Below are positions 16,828-61,450 of a DNA stretch of 61,450 bases, piece by piece. Both the position numbers and the translations under genes were made by a program. Under the pieces are notes generated by a model. It was not told the DNA's origin, ran no database searches, and saw only the letters and a list, made by a program, of their open reading frames with translations. Location of the stretch: NCBI GenBank assembly GCA_040397685.1, contig JBBAVM010000001.1:64432-125881 (forward strand), written 5' to 3'. The stretch is from Pirellulales bacterium (GTDB lineage: Bacteria > Planctomycetota > Planctomycetia > Pirellulales > UBA1268). Within the stretch, counting starts at the first letter, position 1. Each line of letters opens with the position of its first letter.

Positions 16828-18191
16828 AACCGACCACGATCGTTTGGCTGCGGCACGATCTCCGTCTCGATGACAACCCGGCGCTCGCGGCGGCAGCGGC
16901 CCGCGGGGCTGTGGTGCCGGCATTCATCTGGGCCCCCGAGGAAGAGGCGCCCTGGGAGCCGGGTGCGGCGTCACGCTGGTGGCTGCATCAGTCGCTCGAA
17001 CAGCTCTCCGCGGCATTCGCCAAGGCTGGCACGCCGCTCGTGATCCGCCGCGGCCCGTCGCTCGATGCCCTGCGGAAGCTCGCGCAGGAAACGAACGCGA
17101 CGCACGTCGCCTGGAACCGTCGCTACGAGCCGGCCGTGATCAAGCGCGACACCGGCATCAAGCAGGCCCTCGCCGCCGACGGCCTCGACGTGGAGAGCTT
17201 CAACGGCGCCCTGCTGTTCGAGCCGATGCACGTGGCCACGAAGGAGGGAAAACCGTATCAGGTGTTCTCACCGTTCTGGCGGGCGCTCTTGAGCCGCGAG
17301 GAGCCGGCCGAGCCGGTGGCGGCCCCCAGGAAGCTCACGGCGCCGGAGAAATCGCTCAAGAGCCTGGCGATCGACGCGCTCGATCTCCTGCCCACGATCG
17401 ATTGGGCCGGCACGATGCGGAAGACGTGGACGCCGGGCGAGGCGGGCGGGGCGAAGCGACTCGGTCGGTTCGTCGAGCGGGGCCTCGCCGACTACGACGA
17501 CGAGCGGAACCGTCCCGACCACGACGGCACGAGCGCCCTCTCGCCCCACCTCCACTTCGGCGAGATCTCACCCCGCCGCGTGTGGCACGCCGTCCGCGCC
17601 GCCATCGGCGGCAAGCCTGCGAAGGCGATCACGACCGGCGGCGCCGAGGCCTACCTCCGCGAGCTCGGCTGGCGCGAGTTCGCGAACCACCTGCTCTACC
17701 ACTTCCCGCACACCGCGAACGCGCCTTTGCGCGCCGACTACGCGCGGTTTCCGTGGGCGAAGGATCCTGTCGGCCTCCGTGCCTGGCAACGCGGCCGCAC
17801 GGGCTTCCCGATCGTCGATGCCGGCATGCGGCAGCTGTGGGCGACCGGCTGGATGCACAACCGCGTGCGGATGATCGTGGCGAGCTTTCTCGTAAAGGAC
17901 CTGCGGATCTCGTGGCTCGAGGGGGCAAATTGGTTTTGGGACACGCTCGTCGATGCCGATCTCGCGGCCAACACGCTCGGCTGGCAGTGGGCCGCTGGCT
18001 GCGGGGCCGATGCGGCGCCCTACTTCCGGATCTTCAATCCCACGAGCCAGGCGGAGAAATTCGATCCCGACGGGGCCTACGTGAAAGAGTGGGTGGGCGT
18101 CGATGCGGCCGACTATCCCGAACCGATCGTCGACCACGCCGAAGCCCGCAAGCTCGCACTCGAGGCCCTCAAGGCCATGTCGCGAAAGTAG
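16824..18191 (+). CDS. phrB: Deoxyribodipyrimidine photo-lyase (class I CPD type)
   Basis: ATG 16824 overlaps the upstream stop (ATGA). Motifs: IVWLRHDLRLDDNPAL, TSALSPHLHFGEISPRR, GFPIVDAGMRQLWATGWMHNRVRMIVASFLVKDL, LGWQWAAGCGADAAPYFRIFNP. Confidence 0.92.
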   Translation: MKPTTIVWLRHDLRLDDNPALAAAAARGAVVPAFIWAPEEEAPWEPGAASRWWLHQSLEQLSAAFAKAGTPLVIRRGPSLDALRKLAQETNATHVAWNRRYEPAVIKRDTGIKQALAADGLDVESFNGALLFEPMHVATKEGKPYQVFSPFWRALLSREEPAEPVAAPRKLTAPEKSLKSLAIDALDLLPTIDWAGTMRKTWTPGEAGGAKRLGRFVERGLADYDDERNRPDHDGTSALSPHLHFGEISPRRVWHAVRAAIGGKPAKAITTGGAEAYLRELGWREFANHLLYHFPHTANAPLRADYARFPWAKDPVGLRAWQRGRTGFPIVDAGMRQLWATGWMHNRVRMIVASFLVKDLRISWLEGANWFWDTLVDADLAANTLGWQWAAGCGADAAPYFRIFNPTSQAEKFDPDGAYVKEWVGVDAADYPEPIVDHAEARKLALEALKAMSRK

Positions 18192-18298
18192 GACAGGCTT
18201 CAGCCTGTCGGATTCACCGTTGATTCGTGAGCATGACAGGCTGAAGCCTGTCCCACGCTTTACTATTCGCGAGCATGACAGGCTGAAGCCTGTCCCAC
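18188..18298. repeat. Composite palindromic (REP/RPE-like) element, with its second arm tandemly duplicated
   Basis: Arm GTAGGACAGGCTTCAGCCTGTC (18188-18209), a 25-nt spacer, then inverted arm GACAGGCTGAAGCCTGTCCCAC (18235-18256). A third arm lies at 18277-18298, one 42-bp period later. Fills the convergent gap between the phrB stop (18189-18191) and the lipoprotein stop (18302). Confidence 0.9.
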
Positions 18299-42096: not shown

Positions 42097-42470
42097 CGTG
42101 CGCACTCCAGAATGAGCCACGCACCAAGAACCAGCCCGGCGGGCGTGCTGCCCGTCAGACTGCTGCAACATTGTTTCGTGAGGAATGAATCCTCACGCAC
42201 ATCCCGCCGGCATTTTCATGCCGACGGAAGCACCGTGTGCCTTGCAGGGGCTCGGTTGCGGAAACGCCCCGAGGCGTCTCCAACACGTCGTGGGGGACGT
42301 GTCGTTCCTGATGCTGATGTCATTTTACCGCATCACTGCATCGAAGGCCAGTTTTTCACGAGCAACGCGTGTCATAGTCGCGCTCGCGCAACTGCCGAGC
42401 GCAATCGTCGCGGACCAAGGTTGTCCCTGTCGTGCCTCACAATAATGACCTCGTTACCAGGAGGCTCCCA
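42097..42470. promoter_or_regulatory. Structured divergent intergenic region, cassette copy 1
   Basis: 374 nt between divergent start codons. Shares long identical blocks with 58566-58942. Inverted repeats CGTGAGGA..TCCTCACG (42177-42197) and ACACGTC-gtggg-GACGTGT (42283-42301). Motif GGACCAAGGTTGTCCC at 42412-42427. Confidence 0.7.
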
Positions 42471-44078: not shown

Positions 44079-44977
44079 GCCCGGCGAAGCGGCGCCAGAC
44101 GGTCGAGCACGTGCGTGACACGCTCGGCCATGATGTGGTGACCGAACGCCGGGCATGCCGGGTGCTGGGGCAGGCCAGGAACACGCAGCGTCGGCAGGCA
44201 TGCGTTGCTGATGACGAGCCGCAGCTCGTGAAGCGGATCGTCTGGATGGCCAGCGAGTACGGACGCTACGGATACCGCAGGATTACAGCACTTCTGCGAG
44301 CGGAAGGCTGGTGGGTGAACCACAAGCGGGTGGAGCGGATCTGGCGACAGGAGGGCCTGAAAGTGCCTGCGAAACAGCCGAAGCGGCGGCGGCTCTGGCT
44401 TGGAGACGGGTCGTGCGTCCGGCTACGGCCGAGGCACCGGAACCACGTCTGGAGCTACGACTTCGTGATGGATCGGACGGCCGACGGCCGGGCGTTCCGG
44501 ATGCTGACGATCGTGGACGAGTACACGCGGGAATGCCTGGCGATCGACGTGTCGAGGAAGCTGACCAGCGAGGACGTCTTGGAAAGGCTGAGCGACCTGT
44601 TCGTGCGAAAAGGCGTGCCCGATCACATTCGCAGCGATAACGGCAGCGAGTTCACCGCGACACGAGTGCGGGAGTGGCTCGGCCGGGTCGGGGTGAAGAC
44701 GCTTTACATCGAGCCTGGATCCCCTTGGGAGAACGGCTACATCGAGAGCTTCAACGGCAAGCTGCGGGATGAGCTCCTGGCCCGCGAGGTGTTCGATACC
44801 CTGCTCGAGGGCAAGGTGCTGATCGAGTGCTGGCGGAAGGCCTACAACACGGTCCGACCGCACAGCTCACTCGGGTACCGGCCCCCGGCCCCGGAGTCGC
44901 GCCGCCCCTGTCCGCTTGCTTCGGCTACGCCTCAGCAAGCGGACAGGGGCGAGCCATTGGTAGGGAAACCCTATTGA
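44066..44977 (+). CDS. IS3-family transposase OrfB (DDE integrase core), expressed as OrfAB by -1 frameshift
   Basis: Slippery G_GGA_AAC at 44066-44072 in the orfA frame. The -1 frame continues ..LLSPAKRRQTVEHV.. into the rve core (WSYDF..DEYTRE..HIRSDNGSEF..GSPWENGYIESFNGKLRDE). Confidence 0.85.
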   Translation, partial: GKLLSPAKRRQTVEHVRDTLGHDVVTERRACRVLGQARNTQRRQACVADDEPQLVKRIVWMASEYGRYGYRRITALLRAEGWWVNHKRVERIWRQEGLKVPAKQPKRRRLWLGDGSCVRLRPRHRNHVWSYDFVMDRTADGRAFRMLTIVDEYTRECLAIDVSRKLTSEDVLERLSDLFVRKGVPDHIRSDNGSEFTATRVREWLGRVGVKTLYIEPGSPWENGYIESFNGKLRDELLAREVFDTLLEGKVLIECWRKAYNTVRPHSSLGYRPPAPESRRPCPLASATPQQADRGEPLVGKPY

Positions 44978-45061: not shown

Positions 45062-45226
45062 ATGCATCGACGAGTCATGGGCGGCGAGGAGAGAAAGTAC
45101 CCCCGACAGGGATCCAACAAACGCGGTATCTCTCGGGGAAAACCCAAAAAGGGTAGGCCACCCGGCGCAAAATCCGGCACCACGAAAGCCAAACGATCCA
45201 AGGGCCGGAAGGGAGGTGCGAAATGA
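45062..45226 (+). CDS. Possible small basic AT-hook-like protein (54 aa) coupled to the recombinase gene
   Basis: MHRRVMGGEERKYPRQGSNKRGISRGKPKKGRPPGAKSGTTKAKRSKGRKGGAK. Its TGA (45224-45226) overlaps the recombinase ATG (45223) as ATGA. Below the track size cutoff. Confidence 0.3.
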   Translation: MHRRVMGGEERKYPRQGSNKRGISRGKPKKGRPPGAKSGTTKAKRSKGRKGGAK

Positions 45227-47244
45227 TGCACCTCCGCCAACCCATTGTTCTTGCCTTCGGGAAACCGTTTCGTGTGTTGATCCATGCCCGGTTCTCGACC
45301 GAGGAGCAGCGTCCCACCAGCATCGACGACCAGATCGCTGCCTGCCGCCGCTTCTTGGATGCAAACCTGCCCAAGGGCATGAAGCCCTCGCAGTTGGTGA
45401 TCGACTACGTCAAGGAGCCCGAGGTCAGCGGCGAGATTGCCGATCGCTCCGGCATCAATCAGGTCTGGGCCGGCATCGAGGCCAAGCGGTGGGATCTGAT
45501 CATCGCCGAGGAGTCGAGCCGTCTCTACCGCCACCACACGAAGGCCGGCGAACTCTTCGAGTCGGCGGTCGATGCCGGCGTGCGGGTGATCTGCCCGTCG
45601 GACTACATCGACACGGCCGACGACGACTGGCCCGACCGGCTGCATATGTGCCAGATGCAGCACGCCCGATCGAACTATTACGTGCGAAACCGGATCATGC
45701 GTGCCCACGAAGGTCTCTGGGCTCGCGGGGCTGCGGTCGGCATCACCGTGATCGGCTACAAGCGCCGACCGACGTTGCCGGCAACGAAGACCGAGCCGGC
45801 GAGGGGCCCCTTTTACGATGAGATCGACAAGAAGACGGCCCCAGTCATCCGAGAGGTCTTCAAGCGGATCGCGGCTGGCGAAACAGCAGCCGAGGTCGCA
45901 GAGTGGCTCGACTCGATCAAGTTTGCCAAGGCGAAGTGGGCACGGCAGGCCAAGTGGACGAAATACAACGTCAACTCGATCATCCGCCGGACGATCTATC
46001 GGGGTTTTGAAACAAACCGCAAGAAGGTCTCGAAACGAAAGCTCCGGACCGGCAAGTCGGAGTACGTTTGGAACGATCCCGACAAGGTAGAGACCCGCAA
46101 AAGCGAGCATTTGCGGATCGTGTCGGACGCCCTCTGGTATAAGGCCAACGAGGTCGTCGACAACCGTCGCCTCTTCAAGAAGCCGGTCCGCGGCGCGGGG
46201 TACCCGCTTCACGGCACGACCCGCCAGCGGCGTGGTCTGCTCTCGGGCGTATTCACCTGCGGCGTCTGCGGAGCACCGATGTATTCCTACGGGAAGACAA
46301 ACGGCTCGTACCGCTGCTCCGCATCAGCGCAGGGAAAGTGCTGGAACCGGGTCTACTGCGTCCGGAAACGCACCGAGCCGGCGATCCTCGAAGCGGTGGT
46401 CAACGAGGTGTTGTCTCTCGACGGTGTCCGCGACGCGGTGCTGGCCCGTGTTCGGGAACTGCACGAGAAAGGTGGCTCGCTGGCCGTCGAACTCAAGAAG
46501 CTCGATACGGAGGAAAAGAAGCTCGTAGCCTCAATCGAGCGACTATCAGCAGCGGTGGAGAGCGGCGACGGAACGCTCACGTCACTGACGTCGCGGCTGG
46601 CAGCTCGGGAGCAAGATCTCGCGATCGTGAGGGCCCGTCGGCAGGAGGTTGAGGAGCAGGCGGGTCGCAAGGAGAAACTGCCCTCTGCGACGAAACTCCT
46701 CCAGCACCTTGAGGCCGTGAAGACCCAGGTGCTCGGCGACGAGGCCCGGGCGGCGGTAATCCTACGGCAACTACTCGACGGGCCGATCCGTGTGGTGCCG
46801 TTCATGCGGATCGACGGTAGCAAGGTGGTGCCGCGGTTGGAGTTCACCATCAATCTCGTCGCGGCACTGCCGTCGGCGGTGGCGACGCGGCTTCGCCATC
46901 GGGCGGCCGTGGAGGAGCCGTCGGCCGACTCTCCGACGGTGCTCCAGCGGAAACTCCTCGTCAACGCCTACCACAATCCGCAAAAAGCATTGCACGCTTG
47001 CGCGATCGTGGAACGACGTCTGGCGGGGAAAACCACCAAGGAGATCGCCAAGGAATTCGGCCTCACGAAGGACGACATCCGAAACTGCGCACGGATCACG
47101 GAGTTGATGGAGGAGGCGGGCATTCCCGAGCCCTACCACCGACTCACGCAGAGACCGGTGCGCGTCGCCCGGTGGTCGAGCAAGCACTGGCTGCAGGATG
47201 AAGACCGCAAGGGCGGCGGTAAACGCCGCCGCCGGGCGTCATAG
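45223..47244 (+). CDS. Large serine recombinase
   Basis: Resolvase catalytic N-terminus (LIHARFSTEEQ), recombinase domain, zinc ribbon (CGVCGAPMYSYG..YRCS..GKCWN), coiled coil. Confidence 0.9.
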   Translation: MMHLRQPIVLAFGKPFRVLIHARFSTEEQRPTSIDDQIAACRRFLDANLPKGMKPSQLVIDYVKEPEVSGEIADRSGINQVWAGIEAKRWDLIIAEESSRLYRHHTKAGELFESAVDAGVRVICPSDYIDTADDDWPDRLHMCQMQHARSNYYVRNRIMRAHEGLWARGAAVGITVIGYKRRPTLPATKTEPARGPFYDEIDKKTAPVIREVFKRIAAGETAAEVAEWLDSIKFAKAKWARQAKWTKYNVNSIIRRTIYRGFETNRKKVSKRKLRTGKSEYVWNDPDKVETRKSEHLRIVSDALWYKANEVVDNRRLFKKPVRGAGYPLHGTTRQRRGLLSGVFTCGVCGAPMYSYGKTNGSYRCSASAQGKCWNRVYCVRKRTEPAILEAVVNEVLSLDGVRDAVLARVRELHEKGGSLAVELKKLDTEEKKLVASIERLSAAVESGDGTLTSLTSRLAAREQDLAIVRARRQEVEEQAGRKEKLPSATKLLQHLEAVKTQVLGDEARAAVILRQLLDGPIRVVPFMRIDGSKVVPRLEFTINLVAALPSAVATRLRHRAAVEEPSADSPTVLQRKLLVNAYHNPQKALHACAIVERRLAGKTTKEIAKEFGLTKDDIRNCARITELMEEAGIPEPYHRLTQRPVRVARWSSKHWLQDEDRKGGGKRRRRAS

Positions 47245-58565: not shown

Positions 58566-58942
58566 CGTGCGTACTCCAGAACGAGCCACGCACCAAGAAC
58601 CAGCCCCACGGGCGGTGACACCCGTCAGACTGCTGCAACTCTCTTTTCGTGAGGCACGAGTCCTCACGCACATCCCGTCGACACTCTCGTGCCGGCGGAA
58701 GCACCGTTTGCCTTGCAGTGGCCCGGTTGCTGAAACGCCTCCGAGGCGTTCCCGACACGTCGTGGGGGACGTGTCGTTCCTGATGCTGCGTGCATTTTAC
58801 CCGGCGACTGCAGCACAGGCCATCATTCGGCCTGCGTCGAGCGTGTCATAGTTCGTCGCCACCAACACCGGGCCGCGACCGGTTCGGACCAAGGTTGTCC
58901 CTGTCGTCCGACAGTATTCGACATTGCCAAAAGGAGAACTAC
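58566..58942. promoter_or_regulatory. Structured divergent intergenic region, cassette copy 2
   Basis: 377 nt. Identical blocks with copy 1: GAGCCACGCACCAAGAACCAGCCC, CCCGTCAGACTGCTGCAAC, TCCTCACGCACATCCCG, and a 34-mer ACACGTCGTGGGGGACGTGTCGTTCCTGATGCTG (58755-58788). Motif GGACCAAGGTTGTCCC at 58886-58901. Confidence 0.7.
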
Positions 58943-59137
58943 ATGATCGGACCAGTGAAAAACCGACTGCACGACTACGAGGCCGGCTGGCTCACCCTCT
59001 TGATCAAGATGGGCGTGGCATCCAAAGACGAGGCCCAGGCAGCCATGAACCGCGTCGCTCAGGCGGCGATCGACGAGCAGGAGGCGAGGCGAGAGAGACG
59101 GAAACAAGAAGGGCGGCGAAGGAAGCCGCCGGAGTGA
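58943..59137 (+). CDS. Small conserved protein (64 aa), cassette copy 2
   Basis: AAGGAG SD, then ATG 58943. MIGPVKNRLHDYEAGWLTLLIKMGVASKDEAQAAMNRVAQAAIDE.. plus a basic tail. Confidence 0.6.
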   Translation: MIGPVKNRLHDYEAGWLTLLIKMGVASKDEAQAAMNRVAQAAIDEQEARRERRKQEGRRRKPPE

Positions 59138-59186: not shown

Positions 59187-59366
59187 TCACCGACGATCCT
59201 CGAGAGCTTCGTTCGCAAGACTATCGAGTCGCCCTTCGCGAGCGTCCTGCTCGAATTGCCGATCCCACGCCTCGGCGTCGAACCGATCGAACCATTCGCG
59301 AAACACCGCCAACTCGGCTCTTGAAAGCCGTCGAACTGCGTCTTCGATTTCGCTGATCGTGGTCAC
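59187..59366 (-). CDS. Orphan antitoxin-like (addiction-module component-like) small protein
   Basis: GTG 59366. VTTISEIEDAVRRLSRAELAVFREWFDRFDAEAWDRQFEQDAREGRLDSLANEALEDRR. No toxin gene fits in the 50 nt downstream. Confidence 0.4.
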   Translation of the reverse strand: MTTISEIEDAVRRLSRAELAVFREWFDRFDAEAWDRQFEQDAREGRLDSLANEALEDRR

Positions 59367-59450: not shown

Positions 59451-59466
59451 GGACCAAGGTTGTCCC
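59451..59466 (+). promoter_or_regulatory. Third copy of the GGACCAAGGTTGTCCC motif, upstream of the HIT-PLD-helicase gene
   Basis: Exact 16-mer, 23 nt before ATG 59489. The other two copies lie 42-44 nt before the starts of the 64-aa genes. Confidence 0.6.
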
Positions 59467-59488
59467 GCGGGTTCGTACACTGCCGGCC

Positions 59489-61450
59489 ATGGAGTCGGCT
59501 GGCCCCTCACCGTTTGCGCGTGTACCCGAGGCGGAGTGGGTCTGCGCGAATGACCTGTGCTTCGCGATCTTCGATTCGTTTCCCGTGTCGCCGGGGCACG
59601 TGCTCGTGGTTACGCGGCGGGTCGTGCCGACGTTTTTCGAGTGCACGGCCGCGGAGCAGCAGGCGCTCTTGTCGCTGGTCGGCGAGGTGAAGGCTCTACT
59701 CGATGAGCGGCTCGACCCGAAGCCCGATGGCTACAACGTCGGCTTCAATGCCGGGGCCGCTGCCGGCCAGACCGTGCCGCATGTGCATGTGCACGTGATC
59801 CCGCGGTATGCCGGCGATATGAGCGACCCCCGCGGCGGCGTGCGGCATGTGATTCCTGAGAAGGGCAACTACCTGGCGCGCTCGCAGGCCGCCGCAGCCG
59901 AGTCCCCGCGGCTCTCGCTGACCACTGGGCCCGACCGGCCCCTTTGGCCGCGGCTCGCCGAGCGGCTACCGGGGGCGAGCGAGATCGACCTGCTCGCGTC
60001 TTTCGTGCAGCCCTCGGGGCTCGACGTCATCCGCGCAGGGCTTTTCAGTGCGATCGCCGCTGGCGCTCGCGTGCGGCTGCTCGTGGGCGATTACCTCGGC
60101 CTCACGTCGCCCGACGCCTTGCGGCAACTGCTCGGCTGGACCGATCTCGCAGGCCCAGCGTTCGAGGCCCGGCTTGCAGAGCTCGAAAACCTCCGCGGCT
60201 CGCCCGAGTCGTTCCACCCGAAGGCGTGGCGGATTGCCGACTCCTCGGGCGGGATCGTGGTCGTGGGATCGAGCAACCTCTCGCAGTCGGCCTTGGTGTC
60301 GGGCGTCGAATGGAACCTACTCGGCGAGACGTCGGGCTCGGGCGAACTCGACCGTGAACTTGTCGCCGCGTTTGACGACCTCTGGCAGCAGGCCACGCCG
60401 CTGTCGGCCGAGGTGGTCGAGCGGTATGCCGCCAACGTAGGACAGGCTTCAGCCTGTCAGATGTGGGATCCACCGCCGAAGGCCGACAGGCTGAAGCCTG
60501 TCCTACATCCCCGCCCCTGGCAGCAGGAGGCCCTCGCCTCCCTCGCCGCGATCCGTCGTGACGGCTACTCCAAAGCCCTCGTCGCCGTGGCCATGGGCCT
60601 TGGGAAAACCTGGCTCGCGGCGTTCGACGTGATCGCCGTGGGCCGTGAGCTCGGCCGGCCGCCGCGGGTGCTCGTGATCGCCCACCGGGCCGAGATCCTT
60701 GCCCAGGCCGAGGCCACGCTCCGGCAGGCGATCGCGCCTGCGAGCGTGTCGTATGTCGCCGGGTCGTCATGCGACCTCTCCGGCCAGCTCGTCATCGCGT
60801 CGATCCAAAAACTCTCCCGGCCCGACAGTCTCGCAGCCCTCGCGGCGGCGGCTCCGTTTGACTACTGCGTGATCGACGAGGTGCACCACGCCGAGGCGCC
60901 GAGCTACCGCCGCGTGCTCGCGCGGCTGTCGGAGCTGTCGCGGGCTGCCCCGTCGTTCACGCTCGGCCTCACGGCCACGCCCGAGCGGACCGACGGCGTC
61001 GACGTGGCCACGCTCTTCGACGACATCCTCGCGGCCCAGGCCACGATCGGCGACGGGATCGCGGAGGGGTCGCTCGTGCCGTTTCGGTATCGGGGGCTCA
61101 AGGACGACGTCGACTTCGAGCAGATCCCCTGGCGCAACGGCCGCTTCGATCCGGCCGTGCTCGAAGCGGCCCTGGAAAACGCTCCCCGCATGGAACGCCT
61201 CTGGGCCGAGTGGCAGGCCGCCCCGGCCGGTCGCACGCTCGTCTTCTGCTGTTCGCGGCGGCATGCCGTGTTTGCCCGGGATTGGCTCCGGCGAAAGGGC
61301 GTTAGTGCCGCCGCGGTCTTTTCCGAAAGTGGGACAGGCTTCAGCCTGTCGAATCCGGCCGCAAGCACTCGACAGGCTAAAGACCTGTCCCACAACTCCG
61401 ACCCGCGCATGGCGTCGCTGGCCGCCTTTCACGCAGGCACCCTCTCGGCC
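59489..61450 (+). CDS. HIT domain - PLD/HKD nuclease domain - SF2 (ResIII/DEAD-like) helicase fusion protein, 3'-partial (runs off the window)
   Basis: ATG 59489. 654 codons are open to the window end (translated by hand, no stop). Motifs: HVHVHVIPR (59780-), FHPKAWRIADSSGGIVVVGSSNLS (60215-), AMGLGKTW (60596-), IDEVHH (60875-), GLTATPER. Not in the ORF track. Confidence 0.8.
   Translation, partial: MESAGPSPFARVPEAEWVCANDLCFAIFDSFPVSPGHVLVVTRRVVPTFFECTAAEQQALLSLVGEVKALLDERLDPKPDGYNVGFNAGAAAGQTVPHVHVHVIPRYAGDMSDPRGGVRHVIPEKGNYLARSQAAAAESPRLSLTTGPDRPLWPRLAERLPGASEIDLLASFVQPSGLDVIRAGLFSAIAAGARVRLLVGDYLGLTSPDALRQLLGWTDLAGPAFEARLAELENLRGSPESFHPKAWRIADSSGGIVVVGSSNLSQSALVSGVEWNLLGETSGSGELDRELVAAFDDLWQQATPLSAEVVERYAANVGQASACQMWDPPPKADRLKPVLHPRPWQQEALASLAAIRRDGYSKALVAVAMGLGKTWLAAFDVIAVGRELGRPPRVLVIAHRAEILAQAEATLRQAIAPASVSYVAGSSCDLSGQLVIASIQKLSRPDSLAALAAAAPFDYCVIDEVHHAEAPSYRRVLARLSELSRAAPSFTLGLTATPERTDGVDVATLFDDILAAQATIGDGIAEGSLVPFRYRGLKDDVDFEQIPWRNGRFDPAVLEAALENAPRMERLWAEWQAAPAGRTLVFCCSRRHAVFARDWLRRKGVSAAAVFSESGTGFSLSNPAASTRQAKDLSHNSDPRMASLAAFHAGTLSA
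60437..60506. repeat. Composite palindromic element inserted in-frame in the PLD-helicase linker
   Basis: GTAGGACAGGCTTCAGCCTGTC (60437-60458), a 26-nt spacer, then the exact inverted arm GACAGGCTGAAGCCTGTCCTAC (60485-60506). Translated as ..VGQASACQMWDPPPKADRLKPVL... Confidence 0.9.
61329..61393. repeat. Composite palindromic element (second arm degenerate) inserted in-frame in the helicase C-terminal domain
   Basis: GTGGGACAGGCTTCAGCCTGTC (61329-61350), a 20-nt spacer, then GACAGGCTAAAGACCTGTCCCAC (61371-61393). Translated as ..SGTGFSLSNPAASTRQAKDLSH... Confidence 0.85.

What the first reader, a model, noticed from the sequence alone, without database searches (positions are those of the whole stretch)
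59489..61450. ORF missing from the track: HIT - PLD(HKD) nuclease - SF2 helicase in one polypeptide
The frame opened by ATG 59489 stays open for 654 codons to the window end. I translated it codon by codon and found no stop, so it cannot appear in an M..stop ORF list.

Domain order:
- Histidine-triad domain: FPVSPGHVLVVTRR ... HVHVHVIPRYAGD ... DPRGGVRHVIPEKGNY.
- PLD/NucT-like HKD module: FHPKAWRIADSSGGIVVVGSSNLSQSAL.
- ResIII-type SF2 helicase: PWQQEAL, AMGLGKTW, IDEVHH, GLTATPER.

PLD-nuclease plus helicase single proteins are a recurrent defence-island architecture. I cannot assign an N-terminal HIT nucleotide hydrolase/transferase fused to that pair to any named system. The gene sits at the distal edge of the accessory segment, next to an orphan antitoxin-like gene. 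It is preceded by the same 16-nt motif that precedes the two cassette genes.
Basis: partly seen in the sequence, partly recalled or inferred. Interest (0 to 1): 0.72.

Follow-up and report, generated by a model that had tools for sequence, protein, structure and literature searches.

The report
HIT-fused SauUSI-like restriction nuclease-helicase
The window ends inside a real, intact gene for a large defence-type enzyme that joins a nucleotide-hydrolase (HIT) domain to a SauUSI-like DNA-cutting motor; this fusion is common in Planctomycetota and Verrucomicrobiota, I found no paper describing it, and most full-length relatives also carry a LexA-like self-cleaving tail.

Summary
ATG 59489 opens a frame that stays open for 654 codons to the window edge, with coding-type codon bias. 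HIT (Pfam E 6e-22) and the ResIII helicase (5e-25) are solid. The PLD/HKD module is below Pfam's cut-off, but homology to SauUSI (PDB 7CLG, E 1e-60; Foldseek E 1e-36) and invariant H-x-K/GSSN residues establish it.

The fusion is not an artefact. At least 571 species-representative genomes, mostly Planctomycetota and Verrucomicrobiota and including cultured Rhodopirellula and Stieleria, encode relatives. In 55 intact orthologs it is one ORF of about 1230-1300 aa.

Full-length proteins continue with an HTH repeat and a helical plus beta module that has no Pfam or PDB match; there is no DUF3427 domain. Of 60 complete HIT-HKD-helicase orthologs, 55 end in a LexA-type S24 peptidase domain (53/53 scanned), with invariant Ala-Gly site, Ser and Lys.

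Neighbourhoods are defence islands: canonical SauUSI paralogs, HNH, GmrSD, dnd, Schlafen-type helicases and toxin-antitoxin genes. There is no fixed partner or methyltransferase.

Best reading: a new variant of SauUSI-type ATP-dependent restriction enzymes, carrying a catalytically intact Fhit/Ap4A-phosphorylase-type HIT head. The HIT role is unresolved. I found no paper describing it.

The parts
59451..59466 (+). Conserved upstream motif GGACCAAGGTTGTCCC, 38 nt before the ATG; possible promoter or operator element.
   Evidence: There are three exact copies in the window. The same 15-mer sits at the same distance from the ATG in close relatives L001, L002, L003, L005 and L008, with 1-2 mismatches in L006, L009, L011, L014, L015, L017 and L018. 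Further copies occur elsewhere in those loci.
59476..59481 (+). TACACT, a -10-like hexamer 7 nt upstream of the ATG with no Shine-Dalgarno sequence; this arrangement fits a leaderless transcript (inferred).
   Evidence: A TAnACT or TAGAAT box lies 6-7 nt before the ATG in 18 of 18 aligned relatives, even where the 15-mer has diverged. The consensus sigma-70 scan did not call a + strand promoter here.
59489..61450 (+). 5' part (654 codons) of the HIT-PLD-helicase gene. It is cut by the window end inside helicase lobe 2; the expected full length is about 1040-1300 aa.
59489..59824 (+). HIT domain (aa 1-112) of the Fhit/Ap4A-phosphorylase branch; the histidine triad HVHVHVI is at 59780-59800.
   Evidence: Pfam HIT matches at E 6e-22. 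The closest solved structures are 6af2 and M. tuberculosis Ap4A phosphorylase 3wo5/3ano (E 1e-15 to 1e-16), aligned from the N-terminal SPF..VP motif to PRYAGD. H98, H100 and H102 are invariant.
59825..59872 (+). Post-HIT tail DPRGGVRHVIPEKGNY (aa 113-128); invariant, but predicted disordered in the monomer model.
   Evidence: D113, P114, G116, G117, R119, P123 and N127 are invariant across 40 sequences. The model's pLDDT is below 50 over residues 111-150.
59912..60439 (+). PLD/HKD nuclease domain (aa 142-317) with a single HKD motif: FHPKAWRIAD at 60212-60241 and VVGSSNLS at 60260-60283.
   Evidence: PADLOC mREase_IV and the SauUSI alignment cover it. The model shows a folded domain at P0003 residues 154-335. 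H254, K256, G271, S272, S273 and N274 are invariant in P0003 numbering. Pfam PLDc_2 is below its threshold.
60434..60517 (+). In-frame copy 1 of a palindromic repeat element, in the PLD-helicase linker (aa about 316-343).
   Evidence: It folds as a hairpin with dG -51 kcal/mol and is similar to copy 2 and to the site at 18183-18298. The equivalent linker has pLDDT below 50 in the model.
60509..61450 (+). SF2 helicase-like ATPase (aa 341-654, truncated). Motif I AMGLGKTW is at 60590-60613, motif II IDEVHH at 60872-60889, motif III GLTATPER at 60965-60988, and lobe 2 starts near 61235.
   Evidence: Pfam ResIII matches at E 4.7e-25. Relatives carry Helicase_C. Walker A, DExH and motif VI are invariant.
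61324..61404 (+). In-frame copy 2 of the palindromic repeat element, an insert in helicase lobe 2 (aa about 612-638).
   Evidence: It folds as a hairpin with dG -44 kcal/mol. The same element lies at other positions in relatives L001 and L008.

Best explanation
This is the 5' half of a single-chain, ATP-dependent defence endonuclease of the SauUSI (Type IV restriction) kind, with an extra catalytically intact HIT domain at its N-terminus.

Shown here:
- The three modules lie in one reading frame.
- Their active-site residues are invariant across the family.
- The PLD-helicase core is homologous to SauUSI.
- In the structure model the HIT domain hangs on a flexible linker.
- Full-length orthologs replace SauUSI's DUF3427 reader with an HTH repeat and a helical plus beta module of unknown fold. 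Most end in a LexA-type S24 domain with an intact Ala-Gly site and Ser/Lys dyad.
- The gene lives in defence islands, with no fixed partner and no cognate methyltransferase.

Inferred, by analogy with SauUSI:
- Two chains pair through their single-HKD nuclease domains to form one composite active site. The HIT domain, a fold that normally forms dimers, would sit on the same two-fold head.
- The C-terminal DNA-binding modules recognise a feature of foreign DNA and switch on the ATPase.
- The enzyme translocates, and the PLD site cuts both strands.

Inferred, more speculative:
- The S24 tail is a self-cleaving (possibly RecA*-stimulated) switch or dimerisation module.
- The HIT domain binds and turns over a nucleotide of the ApnN/NMP-X type. 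This would tie nuclease activity to a nucleotide alarm signal, or clean nucleotidylated DNA ends.

Whether this particular copy carries the S24 tail cannot be known, because the window ends at residue 654.
For: Reading frame:
- The frame is open, with coding-type codon bias.
- It is a single ORF of about 1230-1300 aa in 55 intact orthologs.

Domain support:
- Pfam HIT and ResIII.
- PADLOC mREase_IV: E 4.9e-53 for the window protein and up to E 5e-88 for full-length relatives.
- SauUSI 7clg: phmmer E 1.4e-60 and top Foldseek match E 1e-36.
- SauUSI's dimeric, target-activated translocation mechanism is taken from PMC7913695.

Conservation:
- The HIT triad, HKD H/K/GSSN, Walker A, DExH and motif VI are invariant across 40 members sharing 46-89% identity.

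Structure model:
- Mean pLDDT is 80.6. The HIT domain is a separate module on a low-confidence linker.

S24 tail:
- Pfam Peptidase_S24 matches 53 of 53 orthologs.
- The A-G site, Ser and Lys are invariant.
- hhalign against LexA pairs GMSMKD with GTSMEP and TVKRL with TVKKY.

Defence context:
- Annotated loci hold GmrSD plus a C5 methyltransferase, dndABCD, SIR2, MazG-like, SLFN-type helicase, a canonical SauUSI-like paralog and ParE.
- Recurrent neighbours are HNH_2 (12 loci), a SauUSI-like paralog (9), an SLFN-type helicase (6) and NERD (3).
- PADLOC hits among the 75 nearest neighbours: 7 mREase_IV, 6 HNH, 3 PD-T4-6 and 3 MkoA.
- No methyltransferase or other gene is universally adjacent.

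HIT linkage:
- All three 'stand-alone' copies of this HIT subtype that I looked up are followed on the same strand by the helicase gene.
Against: - There is no experiment of any kind. The defence role rests on homology and on association with defence genes, and no statistical baseline was computed for neighbour enrichment.
- Pfam PLDc_2 is below its gathering score, and the Asp of the canonical HxK(x)4D motif is not invariant.
- The SauUSI target-recognition domain is absent. The replacement module has no Pfam hit and no PDB match with E below 0.1, so what the enzyme recognises is unknown.
- Nothing tested here shows what the HIT domain does. HIT-less orthologs exist (L075/P0088, L061), so HIT is dispensable for the core activity.
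- Close relatives differ at the 3' end. P0002 and P0003 lack S24, and several copies are frameshifted or split.
- HIT, a PLD fold, a RadD-like helicase and an S24 domain could also be read as a DNA-repair toolkit.
Confidence: 0.68

Rival explanations
1. It is a DNA-repair enzyme rather than a defence enzyme. In this reading the HIT domain removes 5'-AMP like aprataxin, the PLD domain acts like Tdp1 on 3' adducts or cross-links, the RadD-like helicase delivers the enzyme to lesions, and the UmuD/LexA-like S24 tail links it to the SOS response through RecA*.
For: RadD is the second-best solved relative of the helicase (6jde, E 2e-18; Foldseek ranks 3-10). The S24 domain is a hallmark of SOS proteins and has an intact cleavage site and catalytic dyad. 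HIT and HKD folds both include DNA-end-cleaning enzymes (established knowledge of aprataxin and Tdp1).
Against: The PLD-helicase core matches SauUSI far better than RadD (E 1e-60 against 2e-18). The HIT domain is closest to Ap4A phosphorylase and Fhit, and no aprataxin appears among the hits. There is a single HKD per chain, as in Nuc/BfiI/SauUSI nucleases, not the double HKD of Tdp1. The gene has a patchy distribution and sits in variable, defence-rich loci next to toxin-antitoxin genes and Type IV enzymes. Copies are often truncated or frameshifted.
Confidence: 0.12
2. It is the restriction arm of a modification-based system, for example DNA phosphorothioation (Dnd/Pbe-like). The nuclease-helicase would attack DNA lacking the host mark, and the HIT domain would detoxify the nucleoside phosphorothioates or other modified nucleotides released.
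For: dndA/B/C/D lie 4-7 kb downstream of the 86%-identical P0002, and dnd genes occur in L025, L076 and L024. There are weak PADLOC PbeA hits and a weak NCBIfam dnd_restrict_1 hit. HINT1/Fhit desulfuration of nucleoside 5'-phosphorothioates is reported in the literature (from my own knowledge, not checked here).
Against: Only about 4 of about 85 loci carry dnd genes, and no modification gene is consistently adjacent. The window itself shows none near the gene. The PbeA and dnd_restrict hits cover only the generic helicase region and score far below the family cut-offs.
Confidence: 0.08
3. The HIT domain is only a structural dimerisation handle, or a decaying relic, with no catalytic role. The protein is then simply a SauUSI-like enzyme with a different reader domain.
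For: HIT-less orthologs with 59-61% identity exist. In the model the HIT domain sits on a flexible linker and does not pack against the rest of the protein. HIT folds are normally dimers, and SauUSI needs dimerisation.
Against: The whole catalytic apparatus is invariant over sequences only about 46-50% identical: the His triad, N83, N87, Q94 and the 16-residue tail. That is not expected for a mere handle or a relic.
Confidence: 0.08

Closest known systems
[quoted passage not shown]
   Same: Both have an N-terminal single-HKD PLD nuclease, an unstructured linker, an SF2 helicase-like ATPase and a helical region, in the same order in a single chain. SauUSI is the best sequence match (E 1.4e-60) and the best structural match (E 1e-36). 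Both are found in defence islands, and canonical SauUSI-like paralogs often sit in tandem with this gene.
   Different: This family adds an N-terminal HIT domain. It has no DUF3427/SRA target-recognition domain (0 of 53; the PADLOC profile is covered only to about position 630 of 945). Instead it has an HTH repeat and an unmatched helical plus beta module, and usually a C-terminal S24 peptidase. It shares only 31% identity with the tandem canonical paralog. Its target (5mC or otherwise) is unknown.
Fhit / mycobacterial Ap4A phosphorylase (Rv2613c, PDB 3ANO/3WO5) branch of the HIT superfamily
   Same: Both have the HxHxHxx triad, the GYNVGFN nucleotide-binding strand, the PR(Y/W)xGD motif and the N-terminal PF..(I/V)P motif. 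The match is E 1e-15 to 1e-16 over residues 4-112.
   Different: Here the HIT is one domain of a protein of more than 1200 aa, not a free enzyme. It carries its own invariant tail, DPRGGVRHVIPxKGNY, which the PDB alignments do not cover. Its substrate is untested.
LexA / UmuD / lambda CI S24 self-cleaving peptidases
   Same: In full-length orthologs the family has the Pfam S24 domain (53 of 53), an invariant Ala-Gly preceded by VPVYDL, and an invariant Ser (G-x-S-M-E-P) and Lys (T-V-K-x-Y). These align with LexA S119 and K156.
   Different: The domain is attached to the C-terminus of a nuclease-helicase rather than to an HTH repressor or UmuD. The same specialised S24 module is also found on the neighbouring Schlafen-type helicase (40% identity). 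Cleavage and any dependence on RecA are untested. This part is not present in the window.
BfiI / NgoAVII / CglI PLD-family restriction endonucleases
   Same: All use a single-HKD PLD nuclease that works as a dimer, and NgoAVII and CglI pair it with an SF2 ATPase (PMC7913695).
   Different: [quoted passage not shown] Here I found no B3 match by Foldseek and no conserved methyltransferase.

Membership tests
SauUSI-like Type IV restriction enzymes (PADLOC mREase_IV) | N-terminal PLD-family nuclease with a single H-x-K ... G-S-x-N motif | tested here: met
   FHPKAWRIAD...VVGSSNLS lies at aa 242-265. H, K and GSSN are invariant. The region aligns to SauUSI. Pfam PLDc_2 alone is below its threshold.
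SauUSI-like Type IV restriction enzymes (PADLOC mREase_IV) | SF2 helicase-like ATPase following the nuclease in the same chain | tested here: met
   ResIII matches at E 4.7e-25. Motifs I, II and III are present. Lobe 2 (Helicase_C) is seen complete in relatives, but is cut by the window end here.
SauUSI-like Type IV restriction enzymes (PADLOC mREase_IV) | C-terminal DUF3427 / SRA-like target-recognition domain | tested here: not met
   PF11907 is absent from 53 of 53 ortholog C-termini and from all 8 full-length relatives scanned. The PADLOC profile is covered only to about position 495-630 of 945. The confident C-terminal model has no PDB match. The tandem canonical paralog does carry DUF3427.
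SauUSI-like Type IV restriction enzymes (PADLOC mREase_IV) | ATP-dependent cleavage of modified (5mC/5hmC) DNA | not testable with these tools
   This needs biochemistry. The absence of a conserved adjacent methyltransferase is compatible with a modification-dependent enzyme but does not prove it.
HIT superfamily, Fhit/Ap4A-phosphorylase branch | [quoted passage not shown] | tested here: met
   HVHVHVI lies at aa 98-104. Pfam HIT matches at E 6e-22. The domain aligns to 3wo5, 3ano, 6af2 and Fhit. The triad is invariant.
HIT superfamily, Fhit/Ap4A-phosphorylase branch | Dinucleoside-polyphosphate hydrolase or phosphorylase activity | not testable with these tools
   The NCBIfam ATP adenylyltransferase model scores 55.8 bits against a cut-off of 290. 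The domain is therefore related to that family but is not an equivalog.
LexA/UmuD-type S24 peptidases (in the full-length protein) | Ser-Lys dyad plus an Ala-Gly (or Cys-Gly) self-cleavage site | tested here: inconclusive
   The feature is met in 53 of 53 intact orthologs. However, the window ends at residue 654, and the close relatives P0002 and P0003 lack the domain. Its presence in this copy is therefore unknown.
Dnd/Pbe phosphorothioation-linked restriction (PbeA, dnd_restrict_1) | Full-length match to PbeA or TIGR04095, and conserved linkage to dnd/pbe genes | tested here: not met
   The matches are partial and cover only the helicase region. TIGR04095 scores 21 bits against a cut-off of 600, and PbeA reaches E 7.5e-11. 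dnd genes are present in only about 4 of about 85 loci.

The most novel reading that the evidence does not exclude
This could be a restriction-type nuclease motor wired to two signal-processing modules that no characterised restriction enzyme has.

The first is a catalytically intact Fhit/Ap4A-phosphorylase-type HIT head. The second is a LexA-type self-cleaving S24 tail, which it shares with the neighbouring Schlafen-type helicase.

In this reading the enzyme's DNA shredding is gated by infection signals, namely RecA*-ssDNA filaments and/or dinucleoside-polyphosphate alarmones. Alternatively, the enzyme itself makes or destroys an ApnN alarm signal when it fires. The S24 module would then be a portable 'SOS-sensing' switch used by several defence effectors in Planctomycetota and Verrucomicrobiota.
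Probability: 0.2. Interest if true: 0.8.

Novelty: new variant of a known kind. Interest (0 to 1): 0.57.

Why it matters
SauUSI-type enzymes are major barriers to gene transfer, and their known control logic is simple: a reader domain detects methylated DNA and switches on the motor. This family keeps the motor and nuclease but changes everything around them.

- An active nucleotide-handling HIT enzyme is bolted onto the nuclease end.
- A LexA-like self-cleaving domain is usually added at the other end.

It is widespread: at least 571 species representatives and about 1000 clusters at 50% identity, in phyla whose phage defence has hardly been studied. It is also present in cultivable strains (Rhodopirellula, Stieleria, Novipirellula), so it can be tested.

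If the HIT and S24 modules really gate or report nuclease activity, this would link restriction to nucleotide alarmones and to the SOS/RecA signal. If they do not, the finding is still a well-delimited new subfamily that current annotation flattens to 'DEAD/DEAH box helicase' or 'HIT domain protein'.

Tried and rejected
- **Literature:** four full-text searches (SauUSI+HIT; histidine triad+PLD+helicase+defense; HIT domain+anti-phage+nuclease; HIT+HKD+helicase+restriction) found nothing on this architecture. The 'HIT' hits were CD-HIT or 'top hit'. A search for S24/LexA-like domains in phage defence also found nothing relevant.
- **C-terminal module:**
  - A profile of 53 C-termini against PDB sequences gave only chance hits with E above 0.2.
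  - A confident sub-model (pLDDT 89.9) gave no PDB match with E below 0.1.
  - The best viral-library match was one weak DUF262/GmrSD-like phage protein (E 0.014). I keep that as a lead only.
  - My guess from the sequence that the beta domain is a B3/EcoRII-N-like pseudobarrel was not supported by Foldseek, so I dropped it.
- **Named defence systems:** PADLOC gave no match to Mokosh, DISARM, Zorya, Hachiman or Nhi beyond generic helicase similarity.
- **Fixed partner gene:** clustering of 689 neighbour ORFs from about 85 loci found no gene present in more than 12 loci.
- **Stand-alone HIT proteins of this subtype:** all three I looked up are split or frameshifted copies of the same gene family, not a separate family with other partners.
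- **Plasmids and phages:** tblastn found only HIT-less DUF3427 SauUSI-likes at 39% identity or less.
- **Sigma-70 promoter for the gene:** the consensus scan found none on the + strand.
- **ParE/antitoxin homology:** the window's small minus-strand ORF is not related to the ParE pair at that position in relatives.
Full report
**1. The observation**

Translating window 59489-61450 on the + strand gives 654 codons with no stop. The ORF is missing from the mechanical ORF list only because it runs off the window end. The window is 67.8% GC, where long chance ORFs are common. However, this frame has the codon-position GC pattern of the window's real genes (0.72/0.52/0.84). It also has hundreds of homologs at up to 86% identity over its whole length. 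ATG 59489 coincides with the N-terminus of the orthologs.

**2. Domain claims**

- **HIT:** Pfam supports it (E 6e-22, aa 15-108).
- **Helicase:** Pfam supports ResIII (E 4.7e-25, aa 340-500).
- **PLD:** PLDc_2 reaches only 20 bits against a cut-off of 27, so on Pfam alone this claim would be weak.
  - PADLOC's Type IV restriction model (mREase_IV) matches aa 147-616 at E 4.9e-53.
  - The 85%-identical full-length relative P0003 matches the crystal-structure sequence of SauUSI (7clg) at E 1.4e-60.
  - SauUSI is the top Foldseek hit for its AlphaFold model (E 1e-36).
- **Conservation:** in an alignment of 40 members down to 46% identity, the following are invariant:
  - the HIT triad (H98/H100/H102, P0003 numbering);
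  - HKD H254/K256 and G271-S-S-N274;
  - Walker A, DExH and motif VI.

  All three catalytic centres are therefore under purifying selection.

**3. The fusion is real and widespread**

A pattern scan of one genome per species found at least 571 genomes encoding a relative. The genomes are mainly Planctomycetota (Pirellulales, Planctomycetaceae) and Verrucomicrobiota (Akkermansiaceae, Luteolibacter, Chthoniobacteraceae). They include cultured strains: Stieleria bergensis, Rhodopirellula europaea, R. maiorica, Novipirellula rosea and Maioricimonas.

In 55 loci the gene is one intact ORF of more than 1200 aa (mostly about 1230-1300) with the HIT triad, HKD and Walker A motifs. JGI's automatic annotation already names members 'SF2 helicase / Ap4A HIT hydrolase / HKD nuclease'. 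No paper in the searchable library describes the architecture.

The 72,556 plasmids and 50,697 phage records hold only HIT-less, DUF3427-type SauUSI-likes at 39% identity or less.

**4.

The window stops at residue 654, inside helicase lobe 2. Full-length orthologs continue with four parts.

- The rest of Helicase_C.
- A homing-endonuclease-type HTH repeat, matched by Pfam HNH_repeat in 16 of 53 orthologs.
- A module of about 270 aa: a helical, winged-helix-like part, a long helix and a small beta domain.
  - It has no Pfam hit and no PDB sequence hit.
  - A confident model (pLDDT 89.9) gave no PDB structural match with E below 0.1.
  - The best viral-library match is a weak similarity to a DUF262/GmrSD-type protein (E 0.014).
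  - A profile of the module against 1.84 billion representative proteins finds 966 hits, and in the long proteins among the best 150 it sits at about position 780-1050 of 1000-1450-aa chains. It therefore looks specific to this family.
- In 55 of the 60 complete HIT-HKD-helicase ORFs by motif, and 53 of 53 by Pfam, a C-terminal Peptidase_S24 domain.
  - The Ala-Gly pair (context VPVYDL-AAAG-WGP), the Ser of G-x-S-M-E-P and the Lys of T-V-K-x-Y are invariant.
  - A profile alignment to E. coli LexA pairs these with S119 and K156. The LexA sequence was supplied from memory.

By contrast, the canonical SauUSI-like paralog that often lies next door matches the whole PADLOC profile and carries DUF3427. 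It is only 31% identical to the window protein.

Close relatives differ at the 3' end. P0002 stops after the helical part and P0003 after the beta domain. L008, L009 and P0007 have the S24 tail. L001 also encodes it, though its copy is frameshifted. The tail of this particular copy therefore cannot be inferred.

**5. The HIT domain**

Its closest solved relatives are a mycobacterial-type HIT protein (6af2), M. tuberculosis Ap4A phosphorylase (3wo5/3ano) and Fhit. The alignment runs from an N-terminal SPF..VP motif to PRYAGD. NCBIfam's ATP adenylyltransferase model scores far below its cut-off. The domain is therefore related to that family but is not an equivalog.

A 16-residue tail, DPRGGVRHVIPxKGNY, is invariant yet has low confidence in the monomer model. 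That would fit a segment that is ordered only in a dimer or on a ligand, which is inference. The HIT domain is joined to the PLD domain by a variable, disordered linker.

HIT-less orthologs exist (P0088/L075, L061), so HIT is an add-on to a working core. Short 'stand-alone' HIT proteins of this exact subtype are common in the protein database. The three I looked up are each followed on the same strand by the helicase gene, so they are split or frameshifted copies. I found no other partner for this HIT subtype.

**6. Genomic context**

In the window, the gene follows two small ORFs:
- a 59-aa minus-strand ORF (59187-59366) with no Pfam hit;
- a 64-aa ORF (58943-59137).

Farther upstream are TspO, DTW and Fe-S genes, and at 44-47 kb an IS3-type transposase and a large serine recombinase.

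In relatives, the annotated neighbours are:
- ParE toxin-antitoxin pairs;
- GmrSD plus a C5 methyltransferase;
- dndA/B/C/D;
- SIR2 and ARPP-1;
- MazG-like;
- Schlafen-group-3-type helicases;
- canonical SauUSI-like enzymes.

Clustering 689 neighbour ORFs from about 85 loci found no universal partner. The commonest are an HNH_2 endonuclease (12 loci), the SauUSI-like paralog (9), the SLFN-type helicase (6) and NERD (3). Of the 75 nearest neighbours, 7 are full-length mREase_IV, 6 are HNH, 3 are PD-T4-6 and 3 are MkoA by PADLOC.

I did not compute a random baseline, so this is descriptive. It still argues against a housekeeping repair context. The SLFN-type helicase next door carries the same specialised S24 module (40% identity over 161 aa, E 9e-32). 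This suggests a portable regulatory module shared by different effectors.

**7. Mechanism**

For SauUSI it is established that two chains dimerise through their single-HKD nuclease domains. Target recognition by the C-terminal domain then activates the ATPase, and translocation leads to double-strand breaks and shredding (PMC7913695).

I infer the same core cycle here, with the unknown C-terminal modules as the sensor of foreign DNA. HIT folds are normally dimers, so a HIT dimer tethered to the PLD dimer is geometrically natural.

What the HIT chemistry contributes is not shown. My best guess is turnover or sensing of an ApnN-type nucleotide. Ap4A rises on stress and DNA damage (PMC7705103). 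Removal of nucleotidyl groups from DNA ends is an alternative. The S24 tail most likely acts as a self-cleaving switch or dimerisation element. Any dependence on RecA* is pure inference from LexA and UmuD.

**8. Rivals**

- **DNA repair:** an aprataxin-like HIT, Tdp1-like PLD, RadD-like helicase and UmuD-like S24 form a coherent picture. It is disfavoured by the much stronger SauUSI similarity, the Fhit/Ap4A-type rather than aprataxin-type HIT, the single HKD, and the variable defence-island context.
- **Dnd-linked restriction:** the dnd cluster beside P0002 suggests this role. However, dnd genes occur in only about 4 of about 85 loci, and the Pbe/dnd model hits are generic helicase matches.
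- **HIT as a structural handle only:** this is hard to square with the invariant active site.

**9. Verdict**

The gene is a new variant of a known kind: a SauUSI-type single-chain restriction nuclease-helicase with a HIT head, a non-DUF3427 reader and, typically, a LexA-like tail. It is already visible in databases, but I found no paper that characterises it. Its interest is moderate to good, mainly because of the two unusual accessory modules and because cultured hosts exist for testing.

Noticed in passing
window 60434-60517 and 61324-61404 (both inside the ORF); also 18183-18298: A 72-84 bp imperfect palindromic element (arms GGGACAGGCTTCAGCCTGTC / GACAGGCTnAAGnCCTGTCCC; hairpin dG -44 to -51 kcal/mol) is inserted in-frame twice in the gene, in disordered linkers, and is read in two different frames (GQASACQ... 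and TGFSLSN...). Relatives carry it at other positions (the HIT-PLD linker in L001 and L008) or lack it (P0003). It behaves like a mobile REP/RPE-like element that is tolerated inside coding sequence.
   Followed up: partly
window 42412-42427, 58886-58901, 59451-59466; relatives L001-L018: The motif GGACCAAGGTTGTCC(C) recurs on the gene's strand, several times per locus, in close relatives. It sits 38 nt before the ATG of the HIT gene and is followed by a conserved TAnACT box 6-7 nt before the ATG, with no Shine-Dalgarno sequence. This fits a lineage-specific promoter or operator and a leaderless transcript. Its function is untested.
   Followed up: partly
L001 437-646, L003 1488-1697, L005 9106-9266 and 4710-4777, L014 8992-9222, L018 9992-10243: Partial duplicates of the motif plus the first 34-84 codons of the HIT ORF lie upstream of the intact gene. 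They flank inserted small-gene or ParE cassettes, as if cassettes repeatedly insert at the 5' end of this gene and duplicate it.
   Followed up: partly
window 42471 onward and 58943-59137 (+): Two paralogous small genes (MIGPxKNRLHDYEAGW..., about 64 aa) each lie about 42 nt downstream of the 16-nt motif and have a Shine-Dalgarno sequence. A 92-96% identical homolog lies in L005 (8357-8551), also behind the motif. There is no Pfam hit.
   Followed up: partly
window 59187-59366 (-), promoter-like site 59414-59387 (-): A 59-aa ORF (VTTISEIEDAVRRLSRAELAVFREWF...) looks like an addiction-module antitoxin but has no Pfam hit and is unrelated to the ParE pair at this position in relatives. Downstream in another frame is a possible toxin C-terminal remnant (...GDHSEYERLLNRK*). 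A 10/12 sigma-70-like site precedes it.
   Followed up: partly
L012 1917-4355 (-), also L006, L017, L033: A Schlafen-group-3-type helicase (812 aa) encoded divergently about 490 bp upstream of the HIT gene carries the same specialised S24 C-terminal module (40% identity, E 9e-32), with the context LPLYGLKAAASEFGP, GQSMEP and YTVKEY.
   Followed up: partly
L001 5311-8424, L006 14093-17221, L011 6049-9162, L018 14944-18057: A canonical SauUSI-like gene (PLD-helicase-DUF3427, about 1040 aa) lies in tandem directly downstream of the HIT-fused gene in several species. This could be a functional pair or simply clustering within the island.
   Followed up: partly
window 44111-44977 and 45223-47244 (+): An IS3-family transposase (rve/HTH_21) is followed by a large serine recombinase (Resolvase, Recombinase, Zn_ribbon_recom), marking a mobile segment about 12 kb upstream of the gene.
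   Followed up: no
L003 9630-15425: A dndA-dndB-dndC-dndD phosphorothioation cluster, preceded by two unannotated genes (440 aa with a weak AAA_22 hit; 696 aa), lies directly downstream of the 86%-identical ortholog P0002, whose own C-terminus is truncated.
   Followed up: partly
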